A program made the position numbers and the translations under genes. Below are positions 6,339 to 53,900 of a stretch of 64,000 nucleotides of DNA, in pieces. How positions within the stretch are numbered: position 1 is the stretch's first letter; each line of letters begins with the position of its first letter. The notes below the pieces were generated by a model that saw only the letters and a program-made list of their open reading frames with translations, searched no databases and was not told the DNA's origin. The stretch comes from the human T2T-CHM13v2.0 reference genome, Homo sapiens: assembly GCF_009914755.1 (NCBI RefSeq), contig NC_060930.1; one strand, given 5' to 3'.

Positions 6339-6685
6339 TGTAAGGTACTCTCCAGCTCTCATATATTTCAGGGATTGCCTCGGCTACAGAGAGCTGCCTG
6401 TCTCATGGTCACTCCCTTTATGGATCGATGCAAGTACAAATGCCTGGTTACTTTGGTCGAATGCAAGATAATTCTGCAGGGCCTTTTTAGCTATCTACGG
6501 AGACATTTATCTGGAAATCCCCATGGAGTTGGACAAGACTGAATTAGAGCTTGAATTATTCTCCCCAATCCTTCTTCCTTCTTCTCCCTTCTACAAGTGT
6601 TGCTCTCAAGAGGACTCCTTAATAAACACTCTGTGTTCTAAATTCCATAACTGAGCCAACTCTTATGGGAACCTAACCTGTGACA
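6339..6685 (+). mobile_element. Solo ERVL LTR (LTR16A/LTR33-like) within the ERVL internal region
   Basis: TG...CA ends; aataaa near 6621; 3' end gggaacctaacctgtgaca. Confidence 0.65.
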
Positions 6686-7603
6686 GGCCTCAAGGAGATT
6701 TCCTGTGACCAGGTGACAGAGGGGGATAAAACTTGAGCTTGGTTCACAGATAAAGTGGCTTGCTACCACGGTATGATCCTAAGATAAATAGCTGATGCAT
6801 TACACTTCCATTCAGGTGTAGCTTTGAAACAAAATGATGAAGGAAGGAAACTAACCAATAGGAAGAGCTTTAAATTATTAACTTGCATAAAGAAAGAAAT
6901 GGTTTGAGATAACAACATTTATGGATTTATCGATAGTAACAAATAATCTAGCCTTTAGTCAAGGGATCTGGAAGGAGCAATATTGTGAGATCAGGGTCCA
7001 AGAGGTTTAAGAGGAGACATGTAGGTGGATCTATGGATGTGGAAAGGAAGCATGAAGCTCTTCTCATTGCATGCTAGAGCAGACTCATTGTAGGAGAGGT
7101 GCTAAATAACCAAATAGACAGGATGACTTGGCTGATTGTTTTTAGCTCCTGCCCTTGACTATGACAATAGTGGCACCATGGGTGTATGAATGGAGAAGCC
7201 ATGGGACAGATATGGACTGTATGTATATGCCTAAGAATATGGGCTCCATCTTACCAAGGCCTGTGTAGCCAGTCACTACTGCTGAATGCCCAACTCGTCA
7301 GCAATAGAAACTAATGCTAAGTGTCCTGCATGTGAGTATTCCCCAAAGAGCTCAATCTGCCACTTGGTGCAAGTTTGATTTTGTAGGACCCTTTCCATTT
7401 TGAAAAGGGCAGAATTTATCCTAACCAGGATTAACACATATGGGTTCACTTTTCTTTCCTATAGGACTTTGACAAATACAATTTTTCATGGACTTGTGGA
7501 GTGTTTGATTTGCTGATATGATATTCTGCATAATAACATCTCAGACCAGAACAATCTTTTCTTGGCAAAGGAGATAGAGAAGTGGGCACATGACTATGGG
7601 GAC

Positions 7604-8201
7604 TGCCTTAGTCTATTTTGTGTTGCTATAACATAATACCTAAGGCTGGATAGTTGATAAAGAAAAGAGGTTTATTTGGCTCACGGTCCTATAGGCTGTA
7701 CACAAAACATGGCTTTTGTGCTGCATCAAAACATGTTGCAGAAGGTCAAAGAAGAATATGCACATGTGAAGAAGGACCAAACATTGATAAATGTTACTAC
7801 CTCAAACCATTTTCCTCTTTACACAAGTTAATAACTAGGAGATCTTCTCAAAGCTCTGCCTATTGGTTGATATCCTTCCTTCACTGTTGTTCTTAAGGCC
7901 ACACCTGAGTGGAAGTGTAATGCATCAGCTATTCATCTTGGAGTTGCACCACCACACCAAGCTTTATAATTATCTTTATAATAGCCCACTCTGATGGGAA
8001 CTAATCCAGTCCCATGAGAACTAATTCCATCTTGCTAGAATGTGAACTTGCTCACTACCATGAGAACAACACCAGCCCTTTCATGAGGTACATACCTTCA
8101 TGACTCAAACACCCCCAGCTAGTCCCAACCCCAGCACATTGGGGATGCAATTTTAACATGAGTTTTGATGGGGACAAACAAACTGCATGCAAACCATAGC
8201 A
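7604..8201 (-). mobile_element. MaLR LTR (MSTC/MSTD-like) carrying an internal foreign insert
   Basis: tgccttagtctattttgtgttgctataac...gaggtttatttggctcac...aaaccatagca; TSD gggac/gggcc (7599-7603, 8202-8206). Confidence 0.85.
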
Positions 8202-8398
8202 GGGCCTACTGGTCTCATCAACTACGGCATCCAGTGCTATCCTTGCAGAATGCTTGAGTGACCTTTAAAAGATGCAGATTAAGCACCAGTTTGCACGTGA
8301 CACTTTGAAAAGATGGGACATTATTCTTTAGAATGTAGTTTACTTCTTACACCATATCAATTGCATGGTGCTATGTTAGCAAAAGGCATAATCTATAG

Positions 8399-8773
8399 TG
8401 TTATGGACTTAATTGTGTGTTCCCCCCCTTTTATATCTTGAAGCCCTAACCCCTAATGTGACTATATTTTGATATATGGCTTTTACTTAGGTAAGTAGGG
8501 TTACACAAAGCTATAATCCAATATGAGTAGTGTCATTATAAGAAAAGGAAGGGATATCAAGGATGCGTATACTCAAAGGAGAGGCCATGTGAGTATATGG
8601 AGAGAAAACGGCCATCTGCAAATCAAAGAAAGAGATGTCAGGAGAAACCAATCCTGCAACCATCTTGATCTTGGACTTTTCTTCTTCAGAACCGTGAGAA
8701 AATAAATAAATTTCTGTTAGTTAAGCCAGCTAGTCTGTGGTATTTTGTTATGACAGCCCCAGCAAACTAATAA
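8399..8773 (+). mobile_element. MLT1B MaLR solo LTR
   Basis: tgttatggacttaattgtg...aataaatttctgttagttaagcc...gcaaactaata; possible TSD tatag/tatat. Confidence 0.85.
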
Positions 8774-9460
8774 TATATGCGGTTTGGGAACGAAGTGTGA
8801 AAGTGGGAGTGGCTCCATTCACCATCACTTTCCAGTAATCACTTGGAGAATTTGTGCTTCCTGATCCTGAAACCTTAAGCCCTCTGAGTCTAGACATCTG
8901 TGTGTTTAGAGTGGGTTATTTCCAGCTGTGGAAAGCTGTACACTAAAATTCCTACTACTGTACTTATAAAGGTACACATGCCACTTGGTAGCTTTAGGCA
9001 GTGTGTGCCGGTAGACCATCAAACACAATTTAGGAATAATCCACCCTTTCCTTTTTGGGAGTTAGGAAAGCTAGGGAGGAGGGAAGAACTTGTTTGACGC
9101 TCAGCTGATCCATTGGGCAGGGTAGGGAACCGTCTCTGGATCTTCCTATGCTCATTTGTACCTGTGAATGGTACAGCAACAATGACCTTCCTAGTAAGGG
9201 CATCAGAATGGGAGCTCAATCCTCAGGAATAAGTCTATGTGTTACACCATGAGGTAAGCTACCTCAGCTAGTGGACTTGCTAGAGAGAGAGAGAGAGGAA
9301 CATATGTTCGATGATGGAAGGAGATGATGGGTATCAGTTTTTTCCACAGAACCGATGCAGAAACTAGTAAGTTTCCTCAAGAATTGTAACTACAGTAGCC
9401 TGGAGAATCTGTGCTTGGATAGAGTAAAGTTGATGTAAGAAACAAGTGCATTTGAGTGGA

Positions 9461-20980: not shown

Positions 20981-23703
20981 GTCAAATCCCTGAATAGACC
21001 AATAACAAGTTCTGAAATTGAGGCAGTAATTAATAGTCTACTAACTAAAAAATGCCCAGGACCAGATGGATTCACAGCCTAATTCTACCAGAGGTACAAA
21101 GAGGAGCTGGAACCATTCCTTCTGAAATTATTCCAAACAATAGAAAAAGAGGGACTCCTCCCTAACTCATTTTATGAGGCCAGCATTATCCTGATACCAA
21201 AACCTGGCAGAGACACAACAAAAAAGGAAAATTTCATGCCAGTATCCCTGATGAATATCAATGCAAAAATCCTCACTAAAATACTGGCAAACCAAGTCCA
21301 GCAGCTCATCATAAAGCTTATCCACCATGATCAAGTCAGCTTCATCCCTAGGATGCAAGTCTGGTTCAACATACACAAATCAATAAACTTAATCCGTCAT
21401 ATAAACAGAACCAATGACAAAAACCACATGATTATCTCAATAGATTCAGAAAACTCCTTGGGTAAAATTCAACACCCTTTCATGCTAAAAATTCTCAATA
21501 AACTAGGTATTGGTGGAATGTGTCTCAAAATAATAGGAGCTATTTATTACAAACCCACAACCAATATCAAACTGAATGGGCAAAAGCTGGAAGCATTCCT
21601 TTTGAAAACCAGCACACGACAAGGATGCCCTCTCTCACCACTCTTATTCAAAATGGTATTGGAAGTTCTGACCAGGGCAATCAGGCAAGAGAAAGAAATA
21701 AAGGGTACTCAAATAGGAAGAGAGGGAGTCAAATTGTCTCTGTTTGCAGATGTTGTGGTTGTATATTTAGAAAACCCCATCATCTCAGCTCAAAATCTCC
21801 TTAAGCTGATGAGCAATTTCAACAAAGTCTCAGGATACAAAATCAATGTGCAAAAATCACAAGCATTCCTATACACCAAAAATCCTGAGTGAACTCCCAT
21901 TCACAATTGCTACAAAGAGAATAAAATACCTAGGAATACAACTTACAAGGGATGTGAAAGACCTCTTCAAGGAGAACTACAAACCACAGCTCAAGGAAAT
22001 AAGAGAGGACACAAACAAATGGAAAAACATACCATGCTCATGGATAGAAAGAATCAGTATCATGAAAATGGCCATACTACCCAAAGTAATTTATAGATTC
22101 AATGCTATCCCCATCAGGCTACCATTGACTTTCTTCACAGAATTAGAAAAAAACTACTTTATATTTCATATGGAACCAAAAAAGAACCCATATAGCCAAG
22201 ACAATCCTAAGCAAAAAGAACAAAGCTGGAGGCATGACACTACCTGACTTCAAACTATACTACAAGACTATAGTAACCAAAACAGCATGGTACTGGTACC
22301 AAAACAGATATATAGACCAGTGGAACAGAACAGAGGACTCAGAAATAATGCCACACGTGTACAACCATCTGATATTTGACAAACCTGACAAAAGCAATGG
22401 GGTAAGGATTCTCTATTGAATAAATGGTGTTGGGAAGAATGGGTAGACATATGCAGAAAACTGAAACTGAACTCCTTCCTTACACCTTATACAAAAATTA
22501 ACTCAAGATGGATTAAATACTTAAATGTAAAGCCTAAAACTATAAAAACCCTAGAAGAAAACCTAGGCCATACTATTCAGGACATACGCATGGGCAAAAA
22601 CTTCATGACTAAAATGGTAAAAGCAATGGCAACACAAGCCAAAGTTGACAAATGGGATCCAATTAAACTAAAGAGCTTCTGCACAGCTAAAGAAACTATC
22701 ACCAGAGTTAACAGGCAGCCCAAATAATTGGAGAAAATTTTTGCAATCTATCCATCTGACAAAGGGCTAATATCCAGAGGCTACAAGGAACTTAAACAAA
22801 TTTACAAGAAACAAACAAGGAACTTAAACAAATTTACAAGAAACAAACAAGCAACCCCATCAAAAAGTGAGTGAAGGATATGAACAGACACTTCTCAAAA
22901 GAAGACATTTATGTGGCCAACAAACATGAAAAAAAAGTTCATCATCACTCATCATTAGAGAAATGCAAATCAAAACCACAATGAGATACCATCTCACGCC
23001 AGTTAGAGTGGTGATCATTAAAAAGTTAGGAAACAACAGATGCTGGAGAGGATGTGGAGAAATAGGAACGCTTTTACACTGTTGGTGGGAGTGTAAATTA
23101 GTTCAACCATTGTGGAAGACAGTGTGGTGATTCCTCAAGGATCTAGAACCAGAAATACCATTTGACCCAGAAATCCCATTACTGGGTATATACCCAAAGG
23201 ATTATAAATCATTGTACTATAAAGACACATGCACACGTATGTTTACTGCAGCACTATTCACAATTGCAAAGACTGGGAAGCAACCCAAATGCCCATCAAT
23301 GATAGACAGGATAAAGAAAGTGTGGCACATATACACTATGGAATACTATATAGCCATAAAAAAGGATGAGTTCATGTCCTTTGCAGGGACATGGATGAAG
23401 CTGGAAACCATCATTCTCAGCAAATTAACACAGGAACAGAAAATCAAAAACCGCATATTCTCACTCATAAGTGGGAGTTGAACAAAGAACACATGGACAC
23501 AGGAAGGGGAACATCACACACTGGGACCGGTTGGGGTTGGGGGTCTAGGGGAGGGATAGCATTAGGAGAAATGCCTAATGTGGATGTTGGGTTGATGGTT
23601 GCAGAAAACCACCATGGCATGTGTATACCTATGTAACAAACCTGCACATACTGCACGTGTATCCCAGAATTTAAAGTATAATACAAAAAAAAAAAGAAAA
23701 AAA
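20981..23703 (+). mobile_element. L1PA (PA5/PA6-like) 3' segment: ORF2 RT and C-terminus, 3'UTR, poly(A)
   Basis: RT motifs [12 protein letters not shown] and LSLFAD in 21236..21892; 3'UTR gggatagcattaggagaaa; A tail; TSD aggtgaataaa at 23704-23714; frameshifted. Confidence 0.95.
22783..22851. repeat. 32-bp perfect tandem duplication inside L1
   Basis: acaaggaacttaaacaaatttacaagaaacaa at 22783-22814 and 22815-22846. Confidence 0.95.
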
Positions 23704-24276
23704 AGGTGAATAAAAATAGCAGTAGTGAGAACTAAACATTTTAATTGATTAAGACTTAGTTGAACTTTGAGGAACTGCAAAGTAAAATGTCTCTGCAATT
23801 TATGTAATACTTGGTTAAACAGAAGAACTCATTTACTGGGGCCATACATAGCAAGGAATACCAAAAAGGATATGCAAAAACAAAGGAGAATCAGGTTCCC
23901 CACTCTAATATGGCATTTTCCTTGAGCTACGTGGCCCATAGTATGAGCAGTTGGATCTCTGTAAAAAGGTGTCCCAGTGATTATTCTTTGAGGGTTAGAT
24001 GCTGAATTGATTTTGTTCATCTACCTTTCACTCAATACACAGGCCAGACCACTGGCGTCTGTTCTCATTCTTTCATCACTGATGTTCTTTTCTCATAGTA
24101 GTGACCCCTGATGGACTTTTCTCATCCTGGTGACCCCTTCGACACTGTCCAAGAAAATTCTGATATTCTACCCTATTCATGCTGCTGTGAGTAAAATATT
24201 GTCTGTAGACTGATACTTTCTCTTATGAGTGGTTCAACCACCAAGCAAGATCTAGGCAAAATAACAGAATGATAAA

Positions 24277-24540
24277 CTAAAGAGAAAAGGGAGAGAGACT
24301 TTCTTCTAATACATTAATGATTGATTGATCGGCTTATAAATTCTTTTTATGAAGATTGTTTCTTATTATAGATATATATATATAGGTGTTGCCTGAGTTG
24401 ACTCTAAAGAGAAAAGGGAGAGAGACTTTCTTCTAATACATTAATGATTGATTGATTGGCTTATAAATTCTTTTTATGAAGATTGTTTCTTATTATAGAT
24501 ATATAGATACATATATATAGGTGTTGCCTGAGTTGACTCT
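24277..24540. repeat. ~127-bp tandem duplication of unique DNA
   Basis: ctaaagagaaaagggagagag...gcctgagttgact at 24277-24403 and 24404-24538. Confidence 0.97.
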
Positions 24541-37916: not shown

Positions 37917-38118
37917 ATAACACATGTGATTACTGTTATTTAGGATACTATAACATTAAATTATTATTCACCATTTTTTTGGGAAAAATGCTGTCAGCAG
38001 TTAGATATGTTTGAACTGATAACACGTGATTACTATTATTTAGGATACTATAACATTAAATTATTATTCACCAGCTTTTTGGGAAAAATGCTGTCAGCAG
38101 TTAAGTATGTTTGAACTG
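37917..38118. repeat. ~101-bp tandem duplication
   Basis: ataacac...gtgattact...gggaaaaatgctgtcagcagtt...tttgaactg at 37917-38018 and 38019-38118, a few differences. Confidence 0.95.
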
Positions 38119-50740: not shown

Positions 50741-50909
50741 ATTGGACAGCCTTAGCTGGAAAAAAATTTCGCTAGGTATATATAATATATATGAATATGT
50801 GCATATATTTATATATAATATATATAAAATCTCCTACATTACTGAGTTAATATACTATATACATTATTAAACATATGTACAAATAGAAAAAAGGATGCTT
50901 TTTGTTTTT

Positions 50910-53900
50910 TATCTTCACATTTCTTTTATGTATTTTTTAAAATTTTAATTTAATTTAATTTTAAGATCCAGGATACAAGTGCAGGATGTGCAGGTTTGTT
51001 ACATAGGTAAACGTATGCCATGGCGGTTGGCTATACCTATCAACCCTTCACCTAGGTATTAAACTCAGCATGCATTAGCTATTTTTCCTAATGCTCTCCC
51101 CCTCCCCACCCTGCCCCCTGACAAGCCGTCGTGTGTATTGTTCCCCAGCCCTGTGTCCATGTGTTCTCATTGTTCAGCTCTCGCTTGTAAGCGAGAACTT
51201 GGGGTGTTTGGTTTTCTGTTCCTGTGTTAGTTTGCTGAGGATAATGGCTTCCAGCTCCATCCCTGTCCCTTCAAAGGACATGATCTCCTTCCATTTTTAT
51301 GGCTGCATAGTATTCCATGGTGTATATGTACCACATTTTCTTTTTCCAGTCTATCATTGATGGGCATTTGGGTTGATTCCATGTCTCTGGTATTGTGAGT
51401 AGTGCTGTAACGAACATATGCGTGCACATATCTTTATAAAAGAATGGTTTATATTCCTCTGAGTATATACCCAGTAATGGGATTGCTGGGTTAAATGATA
51501 TTTAATTTTATTTCTACCTCTAGGTCTTTGAGGAATAGCCACACTGTCTTCCCGAATGGTTGAGCTAATTTACATTTCCACCAACAGTATAAAAGCATTC
51601 CTGTTTCTCCACAGCCTTGCCAGCATCGGTTGTTTATGGACTTTTTAATAATTGCCATTCTGACTGGCGTGAGATGGTATCTCACTGTGGTTTTGATTTG
51701 CATTTCTCTAATGATCAGCAATGTTGAGCTTTTTTTCACATGTTTTTTGGCTGCATAAGTGTCTTCTTTTGAGAAATGTCTCTTCGTGTTCTTTGCCCAC
51801 TTTTTAATGGAGTTGTTTGTTTTCTTCTTATAAATTTAAGTTCCTTGTAGATGCTGGATATTAAGCCTTTGTCAGATGGATAGATTGCAAAAATTTTCTC
51901 CCATTCTGTAGGTTGCCTGTTCACTCTGATGATAGTTTCTTTTGCTGTACAGAAGCTCTTTAGTTTAATAAGATCCCATTTGTCAATTTTGGCTTTTGTT
52001 GCAGTTGCTTTTGGCATTTTCATTATGAAATCTTTGCCGGTGCCTATGTCCTAAATGGTATTGCTTAGGTTTTCTTCAAGGGTTTTTATAGTTGTGTGTT
52101 TTACATTTAAGTCTTTAATCCATCTTGTTAATTTTTGTGTAAGGTGTAAAGAAGGGGTCCAGTTTCAGTTCTGTGCATAGGCTAGCCTATTCTCCCAGCA
52201 CCATTTATTAAATAGGAAATCCTTTCCCCATTGCTTGTTTTTGTCAGTTTTGTCAAAGATCAGATGGTTGTAGTTGTGTGGTCTTATTTCTGAGATCTCC
52301 ATTCTGTTCCATTGGTCTATGTGTCTGTTTTTGTACCAATACAATGCTGTTTTGGTTACTGTAGCCCTGTAGTATAGTTTGAAGTTGGGTAGCGTGACGC
52401 CTCCAGTTTTTTTTTCTGCTTAGAATTGTCTTGGCTATGTGGGCTCTCTTTTGGTTCCATATGAACTTTAAAGTAGTTTTTTTCTAATTCTAGGTAAAGA
52501 ATATCAGTGATATTTTAATGGGAATCTCATTGAATCTATAAATTACTTTGAGCAGTATGGTCATTTTCATGATATTGATTCTTCTTATCCACGAGCATGG
52601 AATGTCTTTCCATTTGTGTCCTCTCTGATTTCCTTGAGCAGTGGTTTGTAGTTCTCCTTGAAAAGGTCCTTTACTTCCCTTGTTAGCTCTATTCCTATTT
52701 ATTTTATTCTCTTTGCAGCAATTGTGAATGGGAATTAATTCATAATTTGGCTCTCTGCTTGTTTATTGTTGGTATGTAGGAATGCTTGTGATTTTTACAC
52801 ATTGATTTTGTATCCTGAGATTTTGCTGAAGTTGCTTATCAGCTTAAGAAGCTTTTGGGCTGAGATTCTGGGGTTTTCTAGATATAGGACCATGTCATTT
52901 GCAAAGAGTGACAGTTTGACTTTTTCTCGTCCTATTTGAGTACCCGTTCTTTCTTTCTCTGGCCTAGATTGCCCTGGCCAGAACTTCCAACACTATGTTT
53001 AATAGGAGTGGTGACAGACAGCATTTTTGTCTTATGCCAGTTTTCAAGGGGAATGCTTTCAGCTTTTGTCCATTCAGTATGATATTGGCTGTGGGTTTGT
53101 CATAAATGACTGTTACTATTTTGAGGTATGTTCCATCAATACCTTGTTTATTGGGAGTTTTTAACATGAAGGGATGTTCAACTTTATTAAAGACCTTTTC
53201 TGTGTCTATTGAGATAATCATGTGGTTTTTGTCTTTAGTTCTGTTATGTGATGAATTACATTTATGATTTGCATATGTTGAACGAGCCTTGCATCATGGG
53301 GATGAAGCCCACTTGATTGTGGTGGATACGCCTTTTGATGTGCTACTGGATTTGGTTTGCCAGTATCTTATTGAGGATTTCTGCATTAATGTTCATAAGG
53401 GATATTGGCCTAAAGTTTTCTTTTTTTGTTGTATCTCTGCCAGGTTTTGGTATCAGGATGATGCTGGCATCGAAAAATGAGTTAGGGAGGAGTCCATCCT
53501 TTTGAATTGTTTGAAATAGTTTCAGAAGAAATGGTACCAACTCCTCTTTTACCTCTGGTAGAATTCATCTGTAAATCCATCTAGTCCTGGGCATTTTTTG
53601 GTTGGTAAGCTATTTATGACTGCCTCAATTTCAGAACTTGTTATTGATTTATTCAGGGATTCAAATTCTTACTGTTCAGTTTTGGAAGGGTGTATGTTTC
53701 CAGGAATTTATCCTTTTTGTCTAGATTTTCTAGTTTATTTGCATATAGCTGTTTATAGTATTCTCTGATGGTTGTTTGTATTTCTGTGGGGTCCCCTTTA
53801 TCTTTTTTGTGTGTCTATTTGATTCTTCTCTCTTTTCTTCTTTATTAGTCTAGCTAGCAGTCTTTTTTTTTTTTTTTTTTTGAGATGGAGTCTCACTCTA

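What the first reader, a model, noticed from the sequence alone, without database searches (positions are those of the whole stretch)
6758..7963. Inverted local copy of ERVL pol pasted inside the MST LTR (templated insertion)
Seen: 7787-7963, in the middle of the MST LTR, is the reverse complement of 6758-6922. It includes a 24-nt exact match (aatagctgatgcattacacttcca at 6787-6810 versus 7910-7933). The copy keeps about a dozen nt (gagaagatctcctag) that the donor lacks, and the right junction has a short ctttataat duplication. There is no poly(A) or TSD. Inference: this is a fossil of break repair by template switching (TMEJ/MMBIR-like) from a template ~0.9 kb away. It happened after the MST insertion and is old, because the copies have many substitutions. 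It leaves a ~170-bp inverted repeat that could fold if transcribed.
Basis: partly seen in the sequence, partly recalled or inferred. Interest (0 to 1): 0.7.

Follow-up and report, generated by a model that had tools for sequence, protein, structure and literature searches.

The report
Ancient repair scar: inverted local copy
A 177-base piece of a long-dead retroviral element sits copied backwards 0.9 kb away inside another dead element, most likely pasted in while a DNA break was repaired in an early primate ancestor; it is a real but ordinary example of a known kind of local duplication.

Summary
Observation confirmed. Window 7787-7963 is an inverted copy of 6758-6922: 128/165 identical, a 24-nt exact core, and the only non-self hit in a whole-genome search. 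It replaces about 16 nt of an LTR: 14 of 15 sister LTRs have 16 nt where this one has 191, so it is not part of the LTR family. It descends from this donor, not from another family member. Donor and copy share 20 rare bases (control pairs: mean 3, maximum 11) and two length changes, and form a 100/100 clade against 34 paralogs. Divergence (K2P 0.20-0.28) is close to the LTR's own (about 0.32), so the event likely came soon after the LTR inserted. Size, distance, a small deletion and the lack of poly(A) or TSD match the 'repair-mediated duplications' of Pace et al. 2009 (824 human cases within 5 kb, mean 162 bp). I did not find this locus in their table, whose pipeline excluded repeat-derived donors. 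Classic Pol-theta insertions are much shorter and closer, so SDSA-like or microhomology-primed strand invasion fits better. No gene or function is evident. New member of a known kind; low interest.

The parts
6758..6922 (+). Donor (template): decayed RNase H-region segment of an old class III (ERVL-type) internal sequence; lacks 12 nt after 6871 that the copy and most paralogs have
   Evidence: homology to paralog L005, whose matching stretch gives Pfam rve (E 2e-12) and a weak RNase_H match (E 0.009, below cutoff); the window's own frames gave 0 families
7787..7963 (-). Inverted copy of the donor (acceptor), 177 nt
7783..7786 (.). 4 nt of filler at the left junction, or a mutated continuation of the template after a slip between two 6-nt repeats in the donor
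   Evidence: sequence shown; interpretation inferred
7962..7982 (+). Right junction: possible 2-nt microhomology (GC at 7961-7962), then a 9-nt direct repeat with a 3-nt spacer
   Evidence: 14 of 15 sister LTR spacers end in G
7604..7782 (+). 5' half of the host solo LTR (MST-type MaLR; family and subfamily label recalled, not tested)
   Evidence: aligns to sister LTR loci
7974..8201 (+). 3' half of the host LTR; about 16 nt between the halves are missing here
   Evidence: 14 of 15 sister LTRs have 16 nt, 1 has 8 nt
7599..7603 (+). Left target-site repeat of the LTR (4 of 5 match to the right one)
8202..8206 (+). Right target-site repeat of the LTR
6690..9457 (+). Old ERVL-type internal element that holds the donor and is interrupted by the LTR (and by a second insertion at about 8399-8771)
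   Evidence: paralog L005 aligns to 7300-7599, resumes 6 nt later at 8208-8392, then at 8786-9457

Best explanation
The stretch is an inverted copy of a segment 0.9 kb upstream that replaces about 16 nt of an LTR, most likely the scar of a germline double-strand break repaired by ectopic strand invasion and synthesis (a proximal repair-mediated duplication). Shown: local donor, orientation, descent from this donor, LTR deletion, no poly(A) or TSD, order of events, age close to the LTR's. Inferred: a break in the LTR was trimmed; one 3' end annealed to the opposite strand near 6922-6933, possibly through 2-3 nt of microhomology; about 177 nt were copied; the new strand came off and joined the other LTR end near 7961, with a short stutter. 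Later the donor lost 12 nt and both arms decayed neutrally. The copy has no evident function.
For: Donor is the only non-self hit and the reciprocal best hit. 20 shared rare bases against a mean of 3.0 and a maximum of 11 in 276 control pairs; 24 of 162 columns with the corrected pairwise alignment. Both arms are longer than the modal paralog in one segment (45 and 46 vs 44 nt in 22 of 34). In another segment the copy is 1 nt shorter (52 vs 53 in 22 of 34), and the donor is too once its 12-nt loss is set aside. Clade support 100/100. Sister LTRs have 16 nt here. K2P 0.283 (95% 0.19-0.40; core 0.204) against 0.32-0.34 for host LTR vs sisters. Pace et al.: proximal cases average 162 bp and 1.2 kb apart, carry deletions of 1-15 nt, microhomology or filler, and had no poly(A) in 39 of 39 examined.
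Against: At about 22% divergence the junctions cannot be read with certainty; the microhomologies are only compatible, not shown. No orthologue with an empty site could be examined. The genome search skips common words and scored only 2 candidates, so a closer copy elsewhere is not strictly excluded. One of 276 old paralog pairs reached 75% identity, so identity alone is not decisive. The donor seems to have changed more than the copy (branches 0.20 vs 0.075; polarity 21:10, p 0.07), and the distal 25 nt are far more diverged than the core (p 0.003, boundary chosen after the fact). Neither is explained. The pathway (SDSA, MMBIR, other) cannot be told from sequence.
Confidence: 0.85

Rival explanations
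1. Replication template switch (FoSTeS/MMBIR type) at a stalled fork instead of a two-ended break: the nascent strand jumped to the opposite strand 0.9 kb back, copied about 177 nt and returned about 16 nt past the exit point.
For: Inverted orientation, nearby template and possible microhomology match the MMB-TI signature; germline examples exist (PMC8421209 passages). The possible slip at the left junction and the stutter at the right one fit low-processivity synthesis.
Against: The MMB-TIs surveyed there are limited by the method to templates within 100 bp. Size and distance match the Pace distribution. The product would look the same, so this is a variant of the best explanation.
Confidence: 0.07
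2. RNA-templated patch: a read-through transcript of the neighbouring element was reverse-transcribed and captured at the break (class 2 templated sequence insertion).
For: Class 2 TSIPs also lack TSD and poly(A) and show microdeletion and microhomology (PMC5110952 passages).
Against: Those templates are described as distant. A diffusible cDNA has no reason to land 864 nt from its source. No transcript is annotated in the window (hub annotation).
Confidence: 0.03
3. The insert is the scar of the recombination that collapsed the provirus to a solo LTR: the two halves come from the 5' and 3' LTRs and were joined through the templated patch.
For: Donor-copy divergence overlaps the LTR's own age. 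The element is a solo LTR with target-site repeats.
Against: No positive sign. The two halves are equally diverged from sisters (0.336 vs 0.324), which fits either model. End joining would have no reason to keep register within 16 nt, whereas a break in a single LTR explains it directly.
Confidence: 0.03
4. Independent insertion of a fragment from another ERVL-type locus, perhaps later made similar to the neighbour by gene conversion.
For: The family is large, and the genome search gives lower bounds only.
Against: 0 of 34 paralogs come near: local scores 37-107 against 181. Shared rare bases and length changes run along the arm.
Confidence: 0.02

Closest known systems
Proximal repair-mediated duplications (Pace, Sen, Batzer, Feschotte 2009, PMC2671141)
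   Same: Insert of 50 bp or more interrupting a transposable element; donor within 5 kb; size near the mean of 162 bp; small deletion; no poly(A); opposite orientation also occurs (their ACSBG2 example); MST-family hosts are in their table.
   Different: The donor is itself repeat-derived, a case their pipeline excluded by design. Divergence of 17-22% is above every chr6 row in their <5 kb sheet (maximum 16.3%). The locus is not among those rows.
MMBIR templated insertions (MMB-TI; PMC8421209)
   Same: Inverted copy of a nearby template, possible microhomology, germline occurrence.
   Different: Surveyed only for templates within 100 bp and inserts up to read length; here the template is 864 nt away.
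Pol theta (TMEJ) templated insertions (PMC7165422)
   Same: Templated filler at a break, direct or inverted; the small right-junction stutter resembles one.
   Different: Typically 3-30 bp from within about 30 bp; distal templates made up under 0.1% of repair in that study.
Templated sequence insertion polymorphisms (PMC5110952)
   Same: Class 2 lacks TSD and poly(A).
   Different: Templates are distant and the events are recent polymorphisms; this one is local and ancient.

Membership tests
Proximal repair-mediated duplication (Pace 2009) | TE interrupted by 50 bp or more, the two halves continuous within 30 bp | tested here: met
   191 nt in place of 16 nt; judged against 15 sister LTRs, not a RepeatMasker consensus
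Proximal repair-mediated duplication (Pace 2009) | Donor more than 50 bp and less than 5 kb away on the same chromosome | tested here: met
   864 nt
Proximal repair-mediated duplication (Pace 2009) | Donor and acceptor are reciprocal best hits | tested here: met
   the searches give lower bounds for repeats
Proximal repair-mediated duplication (Pace 2009) | No poly(A/T) tail or retrotransposition hallmarks | tested here: met
   insert ends shown
Proximal repair-mediated duplication (Pace 2009) | Deletion, filler or microhomology at the breakpoints | tested here: met
   deletion of about 11-16 nt and 4 nt of apparent filler are seen; microhomology is only compatible
Proximal repair-mediated duplication (Pace 2009) | Insert single-copy and not a nested TE (a detection filter that the authors call a limitation) | tested here: inconclusive
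   2 matches genome-wide, but the sequence derives from a repeat family; filter described
Proximal repair-mediated duplication (Pace 2009) | Empty site in an outgroup orthologue | not testable with these tools
   no other mammalian genome is held (no relatives)
TMEJ templated insertion | 3-30 bp, template typically within 30 bp of the break | tested here: not met
   177 nt at 864 nt
MMB-TI as surveyed by MMBSearch | Inverted copy of a nearby template | tested here: met
MMB-TI as surveyed by MMBSearch | Template within 100 bp (search definition) | tested here: not met
L1-mediated insertion (class 1 TSIP) | TSD of 5 bp or more and poly(A) tract | tested here: not met
Part of an MST LTR subfamily | Segment present in sister LTRs | tested here: not met
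   0 of 28 LTR loci; best local scores 31-53, shuffled maximum 41, donor 181
MSTB2 subfamily label for the host LTR | Best match to that Dfam/Repbase model | not testable with these tools
   label recalled; no repeat library is held

The most novel reading that the evidence does not exclude
The patch records the very event that collapsed the MaLR provirus to a solo LTR: a break repaired by invading DNA 0.9 kb away and joining the 5' half of one LTR to the 3' half of the other. Some solo LTRs would then be products of template-switching repair, and repeat-derived patches, left out of the only genome-wide count I found, would be a large unread record of early primate break repair.
Probability: 0.05. 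Interest if true: 0.45.

Novelty: new member of a known kind. Interest (0 to 1): 0.15.

Why it matters
It matters little by itself. It is a clean, very old example of a class with 824 catalogued human cases, in the sub-type that the catalogue could not see (repeat copied into repeat). The methods point has some use: such cases can be assigned by shared rare bases and indels against paralogs, which could extend the count back to early primates. The arms are predicted to pair over 135-148 bp if transcribed, but nothing indicates transcription.

Tried and rejected
Pfam scan of the three forward frames of the donor region and three frames of the copy: 0 of 6 matched; 2 of 3 frames of paralog L005 did. 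The 'pol' label therefore rests on homology to that paralog (about 60% DNA identity). Chance match: rejected. LTR-family feature: rejected. The 9-nt junction repeat as a TSD: rejected, since it does not flank the insert. Large interruptions in three sister LTR loci (L026, L036, L040) and four other within-locus repeats were checked as possible further local copies; all seven matched repeats at other loci or in the window. Already catalogued? I read chr6 places 1-90 of 120 in Pace Table S1, which covers the whole <5 kb sheet: no row between hg18 chr6:96.08 and 101.26 Mb. The expected hg18 place, about 98.3 Mb, is recalled; no liftover was run, and places 91-120 (distant sheet) were not read. 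A paper search for the neighbouring lncRNA name listed 6 papers, none on this feature by title or abstract start (listing only). Earlier scan findings were not available.

Full report
Observation. Self-BLAST of the window gives one hit in the 4-12 kb region: 6781-6922 against 7939-7787, minus strand, 76.8% over 155 columns. It scores 180 against a maximum of 44.5 in 300 shuffles. A global alignment of 6757-6922 with the reverse complement of 7787-7964 has 165 aligned columns, 30 transitions, 7 transversions, one 12-nt gap in the donor and one internal 1-nt gap. The distal 25 nt align without gaps but differ at 12 sites, 10 of them transitions.

Context. The donor lies in a decayed class III (ERVL-type) internal sequence. 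Its own frames match no Pfam family, but the homologous stretch of paralog L005 matches rve (E 2e-12) and weakly RNase_H (E 0.009, below cutoff). That element continues across the LTR: L005 aligns up to window 7599 and resumes 6 nt later at 8208. The LTR (7604-8201) has 5-nt flanks that match at 4 of 5. The donor element is therefore older than the LTR. The MST family label, and MSTB2 as likely subfamily, are recalled; no repeat library was on hand.

The insert is not part of the LTR family. Of 28 sister LTR loci, 22 aligned on both sides with a gap of 6-72 nt where the window has 180-274; 6 did not give a short contiguous gap. For a finer count I kept 15 of the 28 and dropped 13 with other spacer types, interruptions or poor alignment: 14 have 16 nt and one has 8 nt where the window has 191 nt (7783-7973). 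None of the 28 loci resembles the insert: scores 31-53, shuffled maximum 41, against 181 for the donor under the same scoring.

The copy descends from this donor. The insert finds only itself and the donor genome-wide (2 candidates scored, a lower bound), and the donor region finds the insert first (E 8.5e-24, next 8.3e-13). I compared 34 family members: 20 short stretches, 4 older loci, and 10 members of a younger high-identity clade (4, 6 of the 29 others). They are 48-61% identical to the copy and 42-60% to the donor. Donor and copy share 20 bases carried by at most 20% of the 24 older paralogs; 276 control pairs share 3.0 on average and 11 at most. With the pairwise alignment and 23 older paralogs the count is 24 of 162 columns. 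Both arms depart from the modal paralog length in the same direction in two segments, and they form a clade with 100/100 support, on a long shared stem (0.33) (the bootstrap had not fully settled). Against: one control pair reached 75% identity, so identity alone would not have settled it. The copy and most paralogs have the 12 nt that the donor lacks, so the donor lost them after the copy was made.

Age. Donor-copy K2P is 0.283 (bootstrap 0.19-0.40), or 0.204 for the core. The host LTR halves are 0.336 and 0.324 from sisters, and sisters 0.315 from each other (105 pairs). The sisters were picked as best hits and CpG sites were not removed, so this is rough. At the 2.2e-9 per year rate used by Pace et al., 0.20-0.28 gives about 46-64 million years (hand arithmetic). 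MSTB2, MSTC, MSTD and MSTA1 were mainly active before the haplorhine-strepsirrhine split (PMC10735291, passages). The copy was thus likely made in early primates, not long after the LTR arrived.

Junctions. Left: 4 nt precede the copied block. They match at 3 of 4 the template sequence that lies 8 nt further on, behind a 6-nt repeat in the donor, which would fit a polymerase slip or a later deletion. Sister LTR spacers mostly read TGA, CAA or CGA at positions 2-4 (9 of 15), compatible with a CpG-containing 3-nt microhomology to donor 6931-6933 (inferred). Right: GC is shared by the template end and the LTR (14 of 15 spacers end in G), followed by the 9-nt repeat, which may be a repair stutter or a later tandem duplication. 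At this age none of this is certain. There is no poly(A) and no TSD.

Mechanism. Best supported: a germline break in the LTR, short trimming, invasion of the opposite strand about 0.9 kb upstream, synthesis of about 177 nt, release and rejoining (SDSA-like). Fork template switching gives the same product and cannot be separated here. Canonical Pol theta insertions are 3-30 bp from within about 30 bp (PMC7165422, passages), so TMEJ fits at most the small stutter. RNA-templated patches (PMC5110952, passages) do not explain the proximity.

What is known. Pace et al. 2009 (PMC2671141; I read parts 1, 2, 3 and 5 of 8, the methods section on identification, further passages, and searches in Table S1) found 824 such duplications within 5 kb, inserted in transposable elements, mean 162 bp, mean distance 1.2 kb, with deletions, filler or microhomology and no poly(A) in 39 of 39 proximal cases examined. 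They state that their pipeline excluded all cases in which part of a repeat was duplicated. This locus is not among the chr6 rows of the <5 kb sheet; the hg18 position I compared against is recalled. Other searches (listings, plus the passages cited) showed no description of this locus. Subscription papers and bioRxiv supplements could not be seen.

Function. ViennaRNA predicts 135 (plus) or 148 (minus) arm-to-arm pairs, longest helix 33 or 30 bp, and duplex energies of -172 and -193 kcal/mol against shuffled means of -46 and -58. This follows from the duplication and is no evidence of function. No gene is annotated, and the nearest lncRNA ends about 14 kb upstream of the donor (hub annotation). 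The arms have diverged about as far as neutral LTR copies, so no constraint is seen.

Unexplained. The donor appears to have changed more than the copy, and the distal 25 nt hold a cluster of differences (p 0.003, boundary chosen after the fact). Chance, CpG decay or a second small local event in the donor are possible.

Verdict. Real, correctly described, and a new member of a known kind. Interest 0.15.

Noticed in passing
window 6758-6782 vs 7938-7962: Cluster of differences at the distal end of the arm (12 of 25 vs 24 of 139 in the core), mostly transitions; may be a second local event in the donor.
   Followed up: partly
window 7700-7711: The host LTR also lacks about 29-35 nt in its 5' half compared with 15 sister LTRs (two nearby alignment gaps).
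   Followed up: partly
window 24277-24540: Head-to-tail tandem duplication of about 130 nt, 93% identical.
   Followed up: no
window 37917-38118: Head-to-tail tandem duplication of about 101 nt, 93% identical, just before a masked repeat.
   Followed up: no
window 20985-23716 and 50906-53661: Two long repeat copies (likely L1, label recalled) in inverted orientation, 80.6% over 2.8 kb.
   Followed up: no
window about 6340-6685 and about 8399-8771: Two further insertions break the same ERVL-type element; they look like LTR16-type and MLT1-type LTRs (labels recalled). The paralog alignment skips 8399-8771.
   Followed up: partly
L006-L010 (G000:C1, 120-149 Mb): Five hits on one chromosome to the same integrase-region stretch, four with almost the same alignment, probably copies within segmental duplications.
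   Followed up: no
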